Numbered from the stretch's first letter, positions 57,541 through 63,164 are shown. The stretch: 64,000 bases of DNA from an uncultured Acidobacteriota bacterium (GCA_964645975.1 CAZYAF010000011.1:11057-75056), one strand, 5' to 3'. Numbers and translations are program-made. Notes: generated by a model not told the origin, from the letters alone.

Positions 57541-58512
57541 GTGATTTTGAAGAATAAGCAGATACTATTTTTTGTGGCTTTTGTGCTTTTTTTAATTTTA
57601 ATTTTAAATCCATGGAGCTGCCAAAAAAAGGAATCACCTATAATAGAGGAGAAAAAACAAGAGAGAGAAATTAGTGATAAGTTATCAGATATTCCCGCGG
57701 GCACAATAGTATTTGTTAGTCAGATTAAGGGTCGTTATCAAATTTTTAAAATGCAATCTGATGGAAGCAGACTAAAAAATTTATCTAATAACAAATATAA
57801 TGATGAAAATCCACGTTGGTCACCAGATGGAAGCTGGATAGCTTTTGATTCTGATCGAGGTGGTGATAAAAATATCTTCATAATGAAACCCGATGGCAAT
57901 GAACATGTTAAGATTACAGCTAATAGAGCTACAGATATGCAGCCCACCTGGATGCCGGATAGCAGGCGTTTGGTCTTCGAATCCAATCGCACCGAGAGAG
58001 GTGATTTATATTTGATCGACATAGATGAGAGGAAGCCAAAAGTTCTCTTTGCCACAAATAAAGCGGGCCATAATGGTGGAGCTGACGTCTCACCAGATGG
58101 AAGCAAAGTAGTATACATGAGCAATCGCTTCATAGGGTGGGACATCTTTTTAGGCGATATAAGAGGAGATGCTGGTAAACCAGTGGCCACCGAAGGGGGT
58201 AATTGTAAGCCAGCATGGTCGCCAGATGGAAACTTAATCGCCTGGGTGAACCACAGCCGTTTTAATCCGGTTACCGATATTTGGTTGATGAAGGCGGATG
58301 GAAGCGAGAAAAGAAATCTCACTGACAATAATCCTTATTGGGCTTTTTATCCTACCTGGTCACCTGATGGCAAATGGATAGCCTTTGCCAGCGGTGAAGA
58401 TAAGTTTTCTGCTGATTGGGAGATATATGTCCTGGAGATAGTCACAGGAAAATTGAAAAGGTTAACCTCTAATCGTTATCTTGATTATCAACCAGATTGG
58501 AGTCCGCATTAG
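57541..58512 (+). CDS. TolB-like beta-propeller (PD40 repeats), probable lipoprotein
   Basis: PWSC after a hydrophobic signal; repeated P-WSPDG--IAF. Confidence 0.85.
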   Translation: MILKNKQILFFVAFVLFLILILNPWSCQKKESPIIEEKKQEREISDKLSDIPAGTIVFVSQIKGRYQIFKMQSDGSRLKNLSNNKYNDENPRWSPDGSWIAFDSDRGGDKNIFIMKPDGNEHVKITANRATDMQPTWMPDSRRLVFESNRTERGDLYLIDIDERKPKVLFATNKAGHNGGADVSPDGSKVVYMSNRFIGWDIFLGDIRGDAGKPVATEGGNCKPAWSPDGNLIAWVNHSRFNPVTDIWLMKADGSEKRNLTDNNPYWAFYPTWSPDGKWIAFASGEDKFSADWEIYVLEIVTGKLKRLTSNRYLDYQPDWSPH

Positions 58513-60334: not shown

Positions 60335-60419
60335 TAAGATTTTATTTCTCCAATTACTCAAACTTTTGACTTAAAAAATAAAAATCCTCTATCATATGTT
60401 TTTTTCAGATATGGATAGA

Positions 60420-60446
60420 GGAAAATAGGCGACCGCCTTATCCACC
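60420..60446 (-). other. Candidate bacterial SECIS element
   Basis: After UGA: GCCUCCGGUGGAUAAGGC-GGUC-GCCUAUUUUCC; 4-bp upper stem at +15-18/+23-26, bulge at +14, GGUC loop at +19-22, lower stem +7-13/+27-33. Confidence 0.7.
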
Positions 60447-60647
60447 GGAGGCTCAGCTGAAACCACTGGGAGCACAGCTCGTGGAGCTGGATTTTCCCTT
60501 AGAAGAACTACTAAAAGAGGAGAGGAGCCTCTCGGGTTTATCCGCTTTGCACCGTGGGCAACATATCTCGCTATTATCCGCATTTATCCTTTGAATTACT
60601 TCAAAGCGATGTTTGCATTTGCGGCATTCATATTCATAAATTGGCAT
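60438..60647 (-). CDS. FmdB-family zinc-ribbon protein, probable selenoprotein (Sec at TGA 60453-60455)
   Basis: MPIYEYECRKC...CPRC zinc ribbon; tail SCAPSGFS-TGA-ASGG-TAA followed by a SECIS-like hairpin. Confidence 0.8.
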
Positions 60648-60826
60648 TTCCAACCAATCCTTTCTATCTTATTACATAAAAAATTTCTTCATTATTAATA
60701 TAACTCATCTGATTTATTTTATCAAGCAGTAAATATTTATCTAATCAGGTCTAAAGTTTCTTCTATTACATATTTTGAATAGAATATTTGAAATATACCC
60801 AGTATATAATAAAAAATATCTATATC

Positions 60827-60881: not shown

Positions 60882-61673
60882 ATGAAAGAGTTTTATCTAA
60901 AACTGGGCCAAAAAATAAAGAAAATAAGAGAAACTCTGGGGATTAGTCAGGAAAAGCTGGCAGAATTATGTGGTGTTCCCAGCTCAACCATCTCCCAAAT
61001 AGAAAATGGTGAGAGAAAAGTAACTGCAGATGAGTTAATAAAATTTGCAGATATATTGAATGTCTCCGTCGCAACTTTAACTGGGATAGAGAAAGATGCG
61101 AAGATTTTCTTAAGTAAAGCTAAAATGGATATGAAAAAATACCCTCAAATAAGAATAAATATACCGCAGAAAAATGTAGAAAAATTCAAAGAGGTGCTTC
61201 TTTATATCTTAAACCAGGTTGGCTGCAAAGCAAACCTTGGAGAAACGATAATTTATAAGCTGCTTTATTTTATTGACTTCGATTTCTACGAGAAATATGA
61301 GGAACAATTAATTGGTTTAACCTATATTAAAAATAAACATGGACCAACACCAATAAAGTTTAAAAAAGTTGTGGAAGAACTGATAAAAGAAAAAGAAATC
61401 GAGAAAATAGAGAGTCAGTATTATAACTATCCGCAGACAAAATATTTACCCTTAAGAAAGCCTGATCTTACTAAGCTGAAGGTGAATGAAGTGGAGTTAA
61501 TTGAAGATGTATTGAAAAAGCTTTCTGATATGAACGTAGCTCAAATAAATGAATATTCACATATTGATGTTCCCTGGATAACCACTGAAGATCAGGAGAT
61601 AATTGAATATGAAGCGGTTTTTTATCGAACAGCACCTTATTCAATAAGAGAATATAATGAAAATCTTTCATGA
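60882..61673 (+). CDS. XRE HTH fused to DUF4065/Panacea (SocA-like) antitoxin domain
   Basis: SQEKLAELCGVPSSTISQIENGER; KLLYFIDFDFYE...GLTYIKNKHGPTP...SHIDVPW. Confidence 0.8.
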   Translation: MKEFYLKLGQKIKKIRETLGISQEKLAELCGVPSSTISQIENGERKVTADELIKFADILNVSVATLTGIEKDAKIFLSKAKMDMKKYPQIRINIPQKNVEKFKEVLLYILNQVGCKANLGETIIYKLLYFIDFDFYEKYEEQLIGLTYIKNKHGPTPIKFKKVVEELIKEKEIEKIESQYYNYPQTKYLPLRKPDLTKLKVNEVELIEDVLKKLSDMNVAQINEYSHIDVPWITTEDQEIIEYEAVFYRTAPYSIREYNENLS

Positions 61674-62064
61674 AATTAAAATGTTACCTGAATTTGAGAA
61701 GGATATTAAAAGACTTATCAGGAGATTTATAACGTTAGAAGATGATTTGGATCTCTTTATTGCCAATCAGTTGTACCTTTACCATAAGCTAAAAATAGAT
61801 AATAAAGGAATTGTTACTATACCAGGTATACAGATAAAATATCCAGAGATATATAAAGCTATAAAGTTTGCCTGTAAATCTTTAAAAGGAACAGGTTCTT
61901 ATTCCGGCATACGAGTAGTTTATGCTTATTTTGAAGAGGTGGATAAGATTGAATTGATTGAGATATATTATGAAGAGGATAAAGTAAACGAAGATAGAGA
62001 GAGAATATTAAGATATTACATGGGAAAAGTGTTAGAAGACAAGAAAAACAGATATAAGGATTAA
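61657..62064 (+). CDS. RelE/HigB-like putative toxin
   Basis: Overlaps the antitoxin gene; FEKDIKRL, CKSLKGTGSYSGIRVVYAY, IELIEIYY. Confidence 0.6.
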   Translation: MKIFHEIKMLPEFEKDIKRLIRRFITLEDDLDLFIANQLYLYHKLKIDNKGIVTIPGIQIKYPEIYKAIKFACKSLKGTGSYSGIRVVYAYFEEVDKIELIEIYYEEDKVNEDRERILRYYMGKVLEDKKNRYKD

Positions 62065-62357: not shown

Positions 62358-63164
62358 TTATTTTTTTAGATGCAGGAGCAGATCGAATCTATTCCGGCTA
62401 CTGAGTGTTTGTAAATTGCTAATTACTAATTCATTAGATGCTGCTGGAATCTGCTCTTTATCACTCACCTTTTGTATGGTAAATCGCTGACCACTGAATC
62501 CGCTTTGGTAAAAATTACCATCAATTCTATTGAAAGTCCCGTTGGGTTCAGCATTCACAATGACTGATGCATAGTAACCCGATTTGTCTTTCCACATCAT
62601 ATCAATGGTTCCGTCCGTTTTATATCTTCCGGTGATATCATCAGAATATAATCCTTGCCCCTTGTATTTCCATTGCGTTTCTCAAGTAAGGTCCCTGTCA
62701 TCCTGAATTAAATAGAGTTTTAGCTGTATGTCAACCCAACCCATATATAGATAGCCCTTCCAGCCACCGCTCAGCGATCTGACATTAATGATTTTTGTTG
62801 CGCTTGCCGTTGCACCTTTATCGTCGGTAACAGTAAGCTTTGCTGTAAATTTTCCTCCAGATCTGTAGGTATGATTAACAGTTTTGCCGCTCTTTGTTTC
62901 GCCATCACCGAAATCCCACTGGTAGCTGCTGATAGATTTACTGTGAAGAGATTGTCCCGAAAGTTGATTACCAGGATCAGTTGAGGCGCTTGCATTGAAC
63001 GTCACTTTAAAAGGGCAATTGCCAACAGAGAAGTTTACCGTGAAGGATGCAATAGGTGGCGAATTGCTTTCTGTCGGTGTTGCAGTGGAAGACCCATTGT
63101 CTTCACAAGCAATTAATGCAATGATTATAAAGAAGCTAAGTAGAGAAATTTTGAAATACCTTAT
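62358..63164 (-). pseudogene. PKD-domain lipoprotein gene with ATA in place of a start codon and an in-frame TGA (62682-62684)
   Basis: RBS aaagggag then ATC ATA AGG; lipobox LIAC; PKD motif FNASASTD...YQWDFGDG...LTVTDDKG; ORFs 62682-63005 and 62358-62600 share one frame (DDRDLT*ETQWKYKG...IDMMWKDK). Confidence 0.75.

What the first reader, a model, noticed from the sequence alone, without database searches (positions are those of the whole stretch)
60420..60647. Hidden selenoprotein: FmdB zinc ribbon whose UGA is followed by an fdhF-type SECIS
Seen in sequence: the apparent stop TGA (60453-60455) is followed by four sense codons (ASGG) and a TAA. The downstream RNA folds with upper stem A15-U26, G16-C25, G17-C24, C18-G23, a GGUC loop at +19..+22, a bulged A14 and a lower stem G7..U13/A27..C33. 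Established: the E. coli fdhF SECIS (UGA CAC GGC CCA UCG GUU GCA GGU CUG CAC C) has the same 4-bp upper stem at 15-18/23-26, a bulge near +14 and the same GGUC loop at +19-22; the FmdB family has been reported to include Sec-containing members. Inference: the true product is 69 aa ending C-A-P-S-G-F-S-U-A-S-G-G, a flexible Cys/Sec tail on a zinc ribbon that could be a redox or metal switch. Standard annotation truncates it. An alternative reading is that the hairpin plus UUUU is a weak terminator.
Basis: partly seen in the sequence, partly recalled or inferred. Interest (0 to 1): 0.85.

Follow-up and report, generated by a model that had tools for sequence, protein, structure and literature searches.

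The report
Zinc-ribbon protein ending in selenocysteine
The apparent stop codon of this small zinc-ribbon gene is very probably read as selenocysteine, and the same overlooked signal ends almost every short relative examined, so databases cut the whole group short; the recoding mechanism is the standard bacterial one.

Summary
On the minus strand an FmdB-family zinc-ribbon ORF (ATG 60647) reaches TGA at 60455-60453. Then come GCC TCC GGT GGA, TAA, and a 4-bp hairpin with a GGUC loop. G23/U24, counted from the U of UGA, sit exactly as in E. coli fdhF.

The fold of this one sequence is no better than shuffles. The comparison with relatives decides the case.
- Of 82 distinct short FmdB genes from genomes and metagenomes, 77 end in TGA (37% for neighbouring genes).
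- 71 have 1-7 further sense codons before a real stop.
- 65 of those 71 carry a G-containing hairpin loop starting 20-26 nt after the UGA. The rate is 4% for other genes and 2/37 for TGA stops of long FmdB genes.
- The hairpin covaries, and G+23 is at least 90% conserved.
- A sister lineage keeps the UGA and a 12/12 identical hairpin core, although the gene has 18 synonymous changes and the 3' UTR has diverged.

The published FmdB selenoproteins (GOS 2008) carry Sec in the first zinc knuckle, so this is a different, uncatalogued variant. The likely product is 69 aa with a disordered Cys58...Sec65 tail, probably a redox or metal/sulfur relay.

Public annotation misses the gene.

The parts
60697..60725 (-). 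Promoter-like site (TTGATA, 17 nt, TATATT) about 50 nt upstream of the ATG
   Evidence: Consensus scan, 10 of 12 matches. A pattern match only, not tested.
60658..60661 (-). Shine-Dalgarno-like AGGA, 10 nt before the ATG
   Evidence: Read directly from the sequence.
60438..60647 (-). Full ORF: 69-aa FmdB-family zinc-ribbon selenoprotein, MPIYEYECRKC...SCAPSGFS-U-ASGG, including the TAA stop
   Evidence: Translation with TGA=U. TIGR02605 66.1 bits and PF09723 59.4 bits. AlphaFold: ribbon core pLDDT 78-89, tail from about residue 45 pLDDT 52-57.
60453..60455 (-). UGA read as selenocysteine (residue 65)
   Evidence: TGA stands at this aligned column in 77 of 82 distinct short FmdB genes (P = 2e-27 against 37% TGA in neighbouring genes). 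It is conserved in sister lineage L181/L182.
60441..60452 (-). Four sense codons after the Sec codon (Ala-Ser-Gly-Gly)
   Evidence: In the sister lineage 2 of the 3 changes here are synonymous (GCC>GCT, TCC>TCT). Across the family the extension is 1-7 codons in 71 of 77 TGA-ending genes.
60438..60440 (-). True stop codon TAA; it overlaps the base of the SECIS stem
60427..60438 (-). SECIS core: AGGC-GGUC-GCCU, loop at 60434-60431, G23/U24 counted from the U of UGA
   Evidence: Fold. Same position and loop as fdhF. 12/12 identical in L181/L182 while the next 60 nt are 47% identical. Family hairpin: 90.6% of cells paired against 73.2% in shuffles, covariation 0.653 against 0.295, 0 of 500 shuffles as high. 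G+23 at least 90% conserved.
60420..60446 (-). Possible lower SECIS stem (60446-60440 with 60426-60420), uncertain
   Evidence: Present in the centroid fold but made of G-U pairs and a U-U mismatch. The 3' side is replaced in L181/L182.
60372..60422 (-). Likely intrinsic terminator: stem CCUCUAUCCAUAU...AUAUGAUAGAGG (60422-60385) followed by AUUUUUAUUUUUU (60384-60372)
   Evidence: Minimum-energy fold of the 94 nt from the UGA. The pattern scan did not list it, probably because its loop exceeds the scan's 3-8 nt limit. Inferred, not tested.

Best explanation
The gene at 60647-60438 (minus strand) most likely encodes a 69-residue FmdB-family zinc-ribbon selenoprotein. When the ribosome reaches UGA 60455-60453, the hairpin AGGC-GGUC-GCCU is still exposed. 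Its loop lies 22-25 nt from the U of UGA, as in E. coli fdhF. The hairpin would recruit SelB with Sec-tRNA(Sec), and Sec would be inserted as residue 65. Translation then runs four more codons (A-S-G-G) and ends at a UAA that sits in the base of the hairpin. The SECIS therefore straddles the true stop and the 3' UTR. A separate terminator about 20 nt further on would end the transcript.

The protein has a four-Cys zinc ribbon (C8, C11, C30, C33), a disordered Ser-rich linker and the tail C58-A-P-S-G-F-S-U65-A-S-G-G. I infer that Cys58 and Sec65 form a redox-active selenenylsulfide or a soft-metal/persulfide-binding pair on a flexible arm. The protein would then be a small redox or sulfur/metal relay.

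Shown here: the sequence features, the family-wide UGA, the short extension, the hairpin with covariation, and conservation within this lineage. Inferred: Sec insertion in this organism, and the biochemical role of the tail.
For: 1. FmdB identity.
2. Stop codon: among 160 distinct FmdB loci, the short ones (76 aa or fewer) end TGA 77 / TAG 3 / TAA 2, the long ones 37/28/13. Other genes in the same loci use TGA 37% of the time, and the window's own ORFs 23%. P = 2e-27.
3. Short extension: 71 of 77 have a second in-frame stop within 7 codons, against an expected 32% (P = 1e-28).
4. Hairpin with a G-containing loop starting +20..+26: 65/71 of the Sec-type genes, 2/37 TGA stops of long FmdB genes, 20/451 other ORFs, 1/64 window ORFs (Fisher P = 2e-57). 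The position follows the UGA, although the true stop lies 1-7 codons away.
5. RNAalifold finds the same hairpin unaided, and all 5 pairs show compensatory changes. G+23 is nearly invariant.
6. Subclades show U-x-x-C tails (USSC, USHC, USRC) with the Cys codon conserved after the UGA.
7. Sister lineage L182: 18 synonymous and 4 non-synonymous changes, UGA kept, hairpin core 12/12, downstream 47% identical.
8. Tail predicted disordered.
9. Neighbours of Sec-type FmdB genes elsewhere are redox, Fe-S, sulfur or metal genes: MinD-Fer4, NifX-like, NifU, Mrp, thioredoxin, OsmC, MsrA/B, TrxR-like, MBL-rhodanese, ArsR/HMA.
Against: - selA, selB, selC and selD could not be searched in this genome. The window holds no tRNA gene and no other convincing selenoprotein gene.
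- This hairpin alone is thermodynamically unremarkable.
- A covariance model built from 67 relatives, without the window, scores the site only 13.3 bits. That is E = 0.76 over the whole window, rank 2.
- No unambiguous homolog with Cys aligned to the Sec column was found among the 150 best representatives.
- The bulged base is A, not the U17 of fdhF.
- The window's gene has no informative neighbours, and no RNA data were found.
Confidence: 0.82

Rival explanations
1. Relic signal. The lineage once made the Sec form, but this genome has lost Sec decoding, so UGA is now a plain stop and the protein ends at ...CAPSGFS (64 aa).
For: The Sec machinery was not verified. No second selenoprotein gene or tRNA-Sec lies in the 64-kb window. 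One assembly of the sister lineage (L181) has a 6-nt deletion that removes a zinc-binding Cys, which hints at relaxed constraint.
Against: The UGA and the 12-nt hairpin core are identical between two lineages that differ at 18 synonymous sites in this gene and at about half of the adjacent UTR positions. A useless hairpin should decay like its flank. L182 has the intact knuckle.
Confidence: 0.1
2. Ordinary TGA stop. The hairpin is a chance structure or a weak intrinsic terminator (stem plus AUUUU).
For: The fold z-score is about 0. The hairpin is followed by AUUUUCC. In some relatives (L016, L017, L044) the equivalent hairpin is followed by a clean U-run. About 2% of random TGAs in the window pass the hairpin rule.
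Against: TGA in 77/82, a short in-frame extension in 71/77 and a hairpin at fixed distance from the UGA in 65/71 cannot be chance. Most family hairpins have no U-run. The terminator scan does not call this hairpin, and a stronger terminator lies at 60422-60372.
Confidence: 0.05
3. UGA is recoded, but not as Sec. For example, stop-codon readthrough by a near-cognate tRNA (Trp, Cys or Gly) stimulated by the downstream hairpin.
For: At least one database entry translates the homologous codon as W (P0161...CSTGSTWGVWGG). That shows only that some pipeline used another code.
Against: The loop (GGU with G at +23) and its spacing are those of the SelB-binding fdhF element. The tails have UxxC and C-x6-U motifs typical of selenoproteins. 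The other ORFs in these loci still end in TGA about a third of the time.
Confidence: 0.03

Closest known systems
FmdB-family selenoproteins predicted from Global Ocean Sampling reads (Zhang and Gladyshev 2008, PMC2398784; listed in the reviews PMC9312934 and PMC13188914)
   Same: Same protein family (TIGR02605 / COG2331, N-terminus MPIYEY...). Also predicted from an in-frame UGA plus a bacterial SECIS.
   Different: Their two reads carry Sec in the first zinc knuckle (MPIYEYSUQEUG, MPIYDYKCSNUG; supplement) and are of the long type. Here both knuckle positions are ordinary Cys codons, and Sec is residue 65 of 69 in the low-complexity tail. The reviews list no tail-Sec form and no accession.
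E. coli fdhF SECIS (the SelB-binding hairpin of formate dehydrogenase H mRNA)
   Same: 4-bp upper stem, GGUC loop at +22..+25, G23/U24 in the same place, one bulged base just 5' of the upper stem.
   Different: The bulged base is A17 instead of U17. The stem letters differ (AGGC/GCCU against UGCA/UGCA). The element lies across the true stop codon and 3' UTR rather than deep inside a long ORF. Binding to a SelB was not tested.
Selenoproteins with a C-terminal Sec: the KCU-star family (NF033934, listed in PMC13188914) and, from my own knowledge, the Gly-Cys-Sec-Gly end of mammalian thioredoxin reductase, expressed in E. coli with a SECIS placed after the stop codon
   Same: Sec within a few residues of the C-terminus on a flexible end, paired with a nearby Cys. 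The SECIS is wholly or partly untranslated.
   Different: Unrelated folds. Here the spacing is C-x6-U rather than adjacent C-U, on a zinc-ribbon carrier of unknown function.
Short FmdB proteins with Cys-rich tails (CxxC...CxxC; for example L144 ...GCSSCASPHCSTCSG, L019, L045, L073)
   Same: Same ribbon, same length class, a Ser/Gly linker and a C-terminal thiol-rich motif.
   Different: They end in TAA or TAG, have no SECIS-type hairpin and carry three or four Cys instead of one Cys plus one Sec. No residue-for-residue Cys/Sec alignment could be established.

Membership tests
FmdB family zinc ribbon (NCBIfam TIGR02605, Pfam PF09723 Zn_ribbon_8) | Profile match above the curated cut-off, starting at the initiator Met and containing two CxxC knuckles | tested here: met
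   66.1 bits against 31.3, and 59.4 against 34.4, over residues 1-50 and 1-41. C8/C11 and C30/C33 are present.
FmdB family zinc ribbon (NCBIfam TIGR02605, Pfam PF09723 Zn_ribbon_8) | Low-complexity C-terminal region after the ribbon | tested here: met
   Ser-rich residues 43-57. pLDDT 52-57 and no secondary structure.
Bacterial selenoprotein gene (UGA recoded through a SECIS) | In-frame UGA with an open frame continuing to a real stop | tested here: met
   TGA 60455-60453, four sense codons, TAA.
Bacterial selenoprotein gene (UGA recoded through a SECIS) | Stem-loop shortly downstream of the UGA with conserved G in the apical loop | tested here: met
   Loop GGUC at +22..+25. 65 of 71 homologs have a loop starting at +20..+26 against about 4% of controls. 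Covariation. G+23 at least 90% conserved.
Bacterial selenoprotein gene (UGA recoded through a SECIS) | UGA conserved at the same column in homologs | tested here: met
   77 of 82 distinct short FmdB genes; sister lineage L181/L182.
Bacterial selenoprotein gene (UGA recoded through a SECIS) | Homologs with Cys aligned to the Sec position | tested here: inconclusive
   Among the 150 best of 1.84 billion representatives, most end just before the column. The automatic alignment pulled the upstream Cys onto the column, an artefact. The one apparent Cys form (P0159) turned out to be Sec-type as well. Sister proteins with Cys-rich tails exist but do not align residue for residue.
Bacterial selenoprotein gene (UGA recoded through a SECIS) | selA, selB, selC (tRNA-Sec) and selD present in the same genome | not testable with these tools
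There is no tRNA gene in the window.
Bacterial selenoprotein gene (UGA recoded through a SECIS) | Selenium in the protein (75Se labelling or a Sec peptide by mass spectrometry) | not testable with these tools
   Needs an experiment.
GOS-type FmdB selenoproteins (Sec in the zinc knuckle, CxxU/UxxU) | UGA at one or both Cys positions of the first CxxC | tested here: not met
   The window has TGC at both positions. The GOS sequences read SUQEU and CSNU.
fdhF-type SECIS | G23 and U24 in a small apical loop on a short G-C-rich upper stem at the fdhF distance from the UGA | tested here: met
   Direct comparison of the window fold with the fdhF letters, verified.
fdhF-type SECIS | Bulged U17 | tested here: not met
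   The bulged base is A17. Its importance for a non-E. coli SelB is unknown.
Intrinsic terminator (rival reading of the hairpin) | G-C-rich stem of at least 5 pairs followed directly by a U-run | tested here: not met
   4-bp upper stem followed by AUUUUCC; not called by the scan. A separate long stem plus U-run lies at 60422-60372.

The most novel reading that the evidence does not exclude
The tail-Sec FmdB proteins are a large, phylum-spanning, entirely unannotated selenoprotein class. In it a zinc ribbon serves as a docking handle, and a disordered arm ending in Cys...Sec (or His/His/Sec/Cys) carries sulfur, selenium or a soft metal between partners. Candidate partners are NifU/Mrp/NifX-type cluster-assembly proteins, thioredoxin-type reductases and rhodaneses. 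In some members the SECIS hairpin also serves as the transcription terminator, so one small RNA element would set both the protein's last residues and the end of the mRNA.
Probability: 0.25. Interest if true: 0.75.

Novelty: new variant of a known kind. Interest (0 to 1): 0.6.

Why it matters
If the reading is right, most short FmdB entries in public databases lack their last 2-8 residues, including the only selenocysteine. This particular gene is not called at all: JGI annotates a wrong-frame ORF in its place.

The FmdB family is very large and has no known function. A conserved Cys...Sec arm, together with neighbours in Fe-S assembly, thiol redox, sulfur transfer and metal homeostasis, gives it a testable biochemical handle.

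It also gives many natural examples of a bacterial SECIS that straddles or follows the true stop codon. That is relevant for selenoprotein gene finders, which usually require a long ORF after the UGA, and for engineering C-terminal Sec tags.

Tried and rejected
- Earlier notes on this genome mention no selenium genes.
- Scan of the window for other UGA-interrupted genes: three candidates, none convincing.
- tRNA scan of the window: none found.
- Rfam: no SECIS family matched. The only hits were weak matches to the terminator hairpin.
- Covariance model built from 67 relatives: the window element ranks second but is not significant window-wide (13.3 bits, E = 0.76). The top hit at 58115-58159 has its TGA out of frame.
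- RNA evidence: one metatranscriptome from a related sample had nothing on the locus. The DNA runs only repeated the assembly.
- Search for Cys homologs with a profile against 1.84 billion representatives: hmmalign misplaced the upstream Cys. The best apparent Cys form, P0159, has its own TGA plus hairpin further on.
- A homolog labelled Promethearchaeota (P0007) raised the question of an archaeal-type SECIS. Its context (DUF169, FmdB, DnaJ) equals that of bacterial-looking sediment contig L001, so I treat it as the same lineage and did not pursue an archaeal reading.
- The name FmdB in PMC4807772 and PMC11227280 refers to formylmethanofuran dehydrogenase subunit B, an unrelated protein.
- First walk towards the sister-lineage ortholog hit a short contig. 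The second walk succeeded.

Full report
**What is in the sequence**

The feature lies on the minus strand. An ORF starts at ATG 60647, preceded by AGGA at 60661-60658 and a promoter-like TTGATA-17-TATATT at 60725-60697. It encodes MPIYEYECRKCKHRFEVIQRINADNSEICCPRCKADKPERLLSSFSSSSKGKSSSTSCAPSGFS and reaches TGA at 60455-60453. The frame stays open for GCC TCC GGT GGA (A-S-G-G) and closes at TAA 60440-60438.

The protein is a clear FmdB-family zinc ribbon: TIGR02605 66.1 bits against a cut-off of 31.3, and PF09723 59.4 bits against 34.4.

Numbered from the U of UGA:
- upper stem A18-U29, G19-C28, G20-C27, C21-G26;
- loop G22 G23 U24 C25;
- bulged A17;
- a weak lower stem.

The geometry is the same, except that fdhF bulges U17.

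On its own this hairpin is not special. Its energy equals that of shuffled sequence (z = 0.0 and 0.36), and 2.2% of all TGA trinucleotides in the window pass a comparable hairpin rule. It is nevertheless the only such TGA in the window that ends a credible ORF.

**Comparative test**

I collected relatives three ways: a protein search, one scan of 185,579 species genomes and one scan of metagenome contigs. I then read the DNA behind each stop. After removing duplicates there were 160 FmdB loci.

| Class | n | TGA | TAG | TAA |
|---|---|---|---|---|
| Short (76 aa or fewer to the first stop) | 82 | 77 | 3 | 2 |
| Long (more than 76 aa) | 78 | 37 | 28 | 13 |

- Other genes in the same loci use TGA 37% of the time, and the window's own ORFs 23%. 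The excess in the short class has P = 2e-27.
- In 71 of the 77 TGA-ending short genes, the TGA is followed by only 1-7 sense codons and a second in-frame stop. The chance expectation is 32% (P = 1e-28).
- The five short proteins that end in TAA or TAG include four with tails full of cysteines (CxxC...CxxC; L019, L045, L073, L144); the fifth, L152, has no Cys tail.

**The hairpin**

I looked for a stem of at least 4 pairs (at least 3 of them G-C) with a G-containing loop of 3-8 nt starting 20-26 nt from the U of the stop.

| Set | With hairpin |
|---|---|
| Sec-type short FmdB genes | 65 of 71 |
| TGA stops of long FmdB genes | 2 of 37 |
| Other ORFs of 100 aa or more in the same loci | 20 of 451 |
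| Window ORFs | 1 of 64 |

Fisher P for Sec-type against other ORFs is 2e-57. The loop keeps its distance to the UGA although the true stop lies anywhere from 1 to 7 codons later. That is what a SECIS does and what a terminator does not do.

A MAFFT alignment of 70 such regions leaves TGA invariant and one G, at +23, at least 90% conserved. RNAalifold, given no hint, places its consensus helix on the same hairpin, and all five pairs show double compensatory changes. In one search:
- 90.6% of cells are paired, against 73.2% in column shuffles and at most 55% when the 3' partner is slid;
- the covariation score is 0.653 against 0.295;
- 0 of 500 shuffles reach the observed value on either measure.

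Loops read GGUC, GGU, GUC, GUU, CGGGA or CGUGU. The motif C-GGUC-G of the window recurs in about a dozen relatives.

**Sign of translation beyond the UGA**

One subclade ends ...H-S-A-x-G-H-S-U-S-S-C, with variants USHC and USRC. The Cys codon three positions after the UGA is conserved while the middle codons change. UxxC is a classic selenoprotein redox motif.

**Conservation in the window's own lineage**

I walked along a syntenic contig of a sister lineage whose propionyl-CoA carboxylase beta subunit is 94% identical. The orthologous FmdB gene sits in the same place, between the 589-aa membrane protein gene and the HTH/SocA_Panacea gene. Against L182:
- the gene has 18 synonymous and 4 non-synonymous differences;
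- the UGA is kept;
- two of the three changes after it are synonymous (GCC>GCT, TCC>TCT), and the third is G69R;
- the TAA is kept;
- the 12-nt hairpin core is 12/12 identical;
- the next 60 nt are only 47% identical.

One assembly (L181) has a 6-nt deletion that removes E7-C8; the other (L182) is intact.

**The terminator alternative**

A long stem (60422-60385) followed by AUUUUUAUUUUUU (60384-60372) is the obvious terminator. The small hairpin is not called by the terminator scan. In a few relatives (L016, L017, L044) the SECIS-like hairpin is itself followed by a U-run, so the two roles may be merged there. That is an observation, not a test.

**What could not be done**

- The window has no tRNA gene and no other convincing selenoprotein gene.
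- A covariance model built from 67 relatives without the window ranks the window's element second in 128 kb, at only 13.3 bits (E = 0.76). It is a short, low-information motif, convincing only because it sits at the one place where it is expected.
- No RNA data covered the locus.
Its nearest named relatives, at about 75% identity for a housekeeping enzyme, are Acidobacteriota/Aminicenantaceae MAGs.

**Protein and likely function**

AlphaFold with the family alignment gives a confident ribbon (pLDDT 78-89 over residues 1-40) and a structureless tail (52-57). The tail ends C58-A-P-S-G-F-S-U65-A-S-G-G. Most relatives have one Cys 5-10 residues before the Sec, and one subclade has two His and a following Cys instead.

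The window's gene stands alone, convergent with a membrane protein gene and next to a toxin-antitoxin-like pair. Elsewhere, Sec-type FmdB genes sit beside:
- MinD/CbiA-ferredoxin ATPases (17 loci), NifX-like proteins (13), NifU/IscU (12), Mrp/NUBPL (9), a second FmdB paralog (8) and DnaJ (8);
- MsrB and MsrA;
- thioredoxin and OsmC;
- in the window-like subclade, a TrxR-like flavoprotein, an MBL-rhodanese fusion, and ArsR, HMA and efflux genes.

I therefore infer a thiol/selenol redox, or sulfur/metal relay, role for the flexible arm. This step is inference.

**Comparison with what is known**

Zhang and Gladyshev (2008, PMC2398784) listed 'putative regulatory protein, FmdB family' among new selenoproteins, with two GOS reads. 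Their supplement shows Sec in the first zinc knuckle (MPIYEYSUQEUG..., MPIYDYKCSNUG...) of long-type proteins. The 2022 and 2026 reviews repeat only that entry ('U/CxxU', 'UxxU'), without an accession.

NCBIfam release 20 has no dedicated model; only the generic TIGR02605 matches. A full-text search for 'zinc ribbon' with selenocysteine and SECIS found nothing relevant.

Public annotation truncates the relatives at the UGA (names). For the window's contig it misses the gene, calling a wrong-frame 63-aa ORF instead. Among the 150 best representatives of 1.84 billion protein clusters, the great majority end at ...G-F-[STG]...G-S-T...R-F-T and the like, that is, just before the Sec column. Their stop codons were not checked, but the class looks large.

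Earlier notes of this same scan describe the same phenomenon in other genomes. I treated them as leads and re-derived the evidence here.

**Verdict**

The mechanism is canonical bacterial Sec recoding. The new element is the position of the Sec (a C-terminal arm rather than the zinc knuckle), the SECIS that straddles the stop codon, and the breadth of an unannotated clade. Confidence that this gene makes the Sec form in its host is 0.82, limited mainly by the untested Sec machinery.

Noticed in passing
window 60392-60583 (minus); L181 10543-10764: The public (JGI) gene call on the window's own contig is a wrong-frame 63-aa ORF that overlaps the FmdB gene; the FmdB gene itself is not called. 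In the sister contig a spurious opposite-strand 73-aa ORF is called instead.
   Followed up: yes
window 60372-60446 (minus): The 5' arm of the terminator stem (UAUCCAU) can alternatively pair with the codons just after the UGA (GUGGAUA) and so extend the SECIS helix (MFE fold). The extended SECIS and the terminator would be mutually exclusive folds.
   Followed up: no
L016 4211-4240, L017 4220-4250, L044 4217-4246: In the ...SSGFG-U-A* subclade the SECIS-like hairpin is followed directly by a run of 5-7 U. It looks like a SECIS that doubles as an intrinsic terminator.
   Followed up: no
L181 10790-10811 against L182: One assembly of the sister lineage has a 6-nt deletion that removes Glu7-Cys8, the first zinc ligand, of the FmdB ortholog. 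A second assembly from another sample is intact.
   Followed up: partly
L177 540-790: The best-scoring database relative (P0159) looked like a Cys form (...HGHTCSLGGGG). Its own TGA is followed by GGA ATT AAA CAT TAA and an AGAGCA-GUU-UGCUCU hairpin, so it is probably Sec-type too. It sits between a thioredoxin gene and an OsmC gene.
   Followed up: partly
P0161: A database protein ends ...CSTGSTWGVWGG. The Sec-column TGA, and the next one, were apparently translated as Trp by a pipeline using another genetic code.
   Followed up: no
L010, L014, L024, L039, L109-L119 and others, within 2.5 kb of the FmdB gene: Recurrent cluster around Sec-type FmdB genes in Dehalococcoidia-like contigs: MinD/CbiA-ferredoxin ATPase, NifX-like (Nitro_FeMo-Co, some fused to DUF5320), NifU_N, Mrp/NUBPL, and a second FmdB paralog with a Cys-rich tail.
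   Followed up: partly
window 60882-62064 (plus): Next to the FmdB gene lies an HTH_XRE/SocA_Panacea protein (263 aa) overlapping a 135-aa ORF, a toxin-antitoxin-like pair. It is conserved in the same place in the sister lineage.
   Followed up: no
window 62358-63005 (minus): A PKD-domain-like ORF is interrupted by an in-frame TGA at 62684 (107 aa on each side) with no SECIS-like hairpin. It is probably a pseudogene or two separate ORFs.
   Followed up: partly
window 58115-58159 (plus): Best window hit of the family SECIS model (17 bits, E = 0.14) lies inside the Tricorn/PD40-like gene 57541-58512, but its TGA is out of frame. It is a chance match and shows how little information the motif carries on its own.
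   Followed up: yes
L176 (NCBI GCA_048940245.1, labelled Promethearchaeota): A 66%-identical homolog is binned as an Asgard archaeon. Its 2.9-kb contig has the same DUF169-FmdB-DnaJ order as sediment contig L001. Mis-binning or transfer was not resolved.
   Followed up: partly
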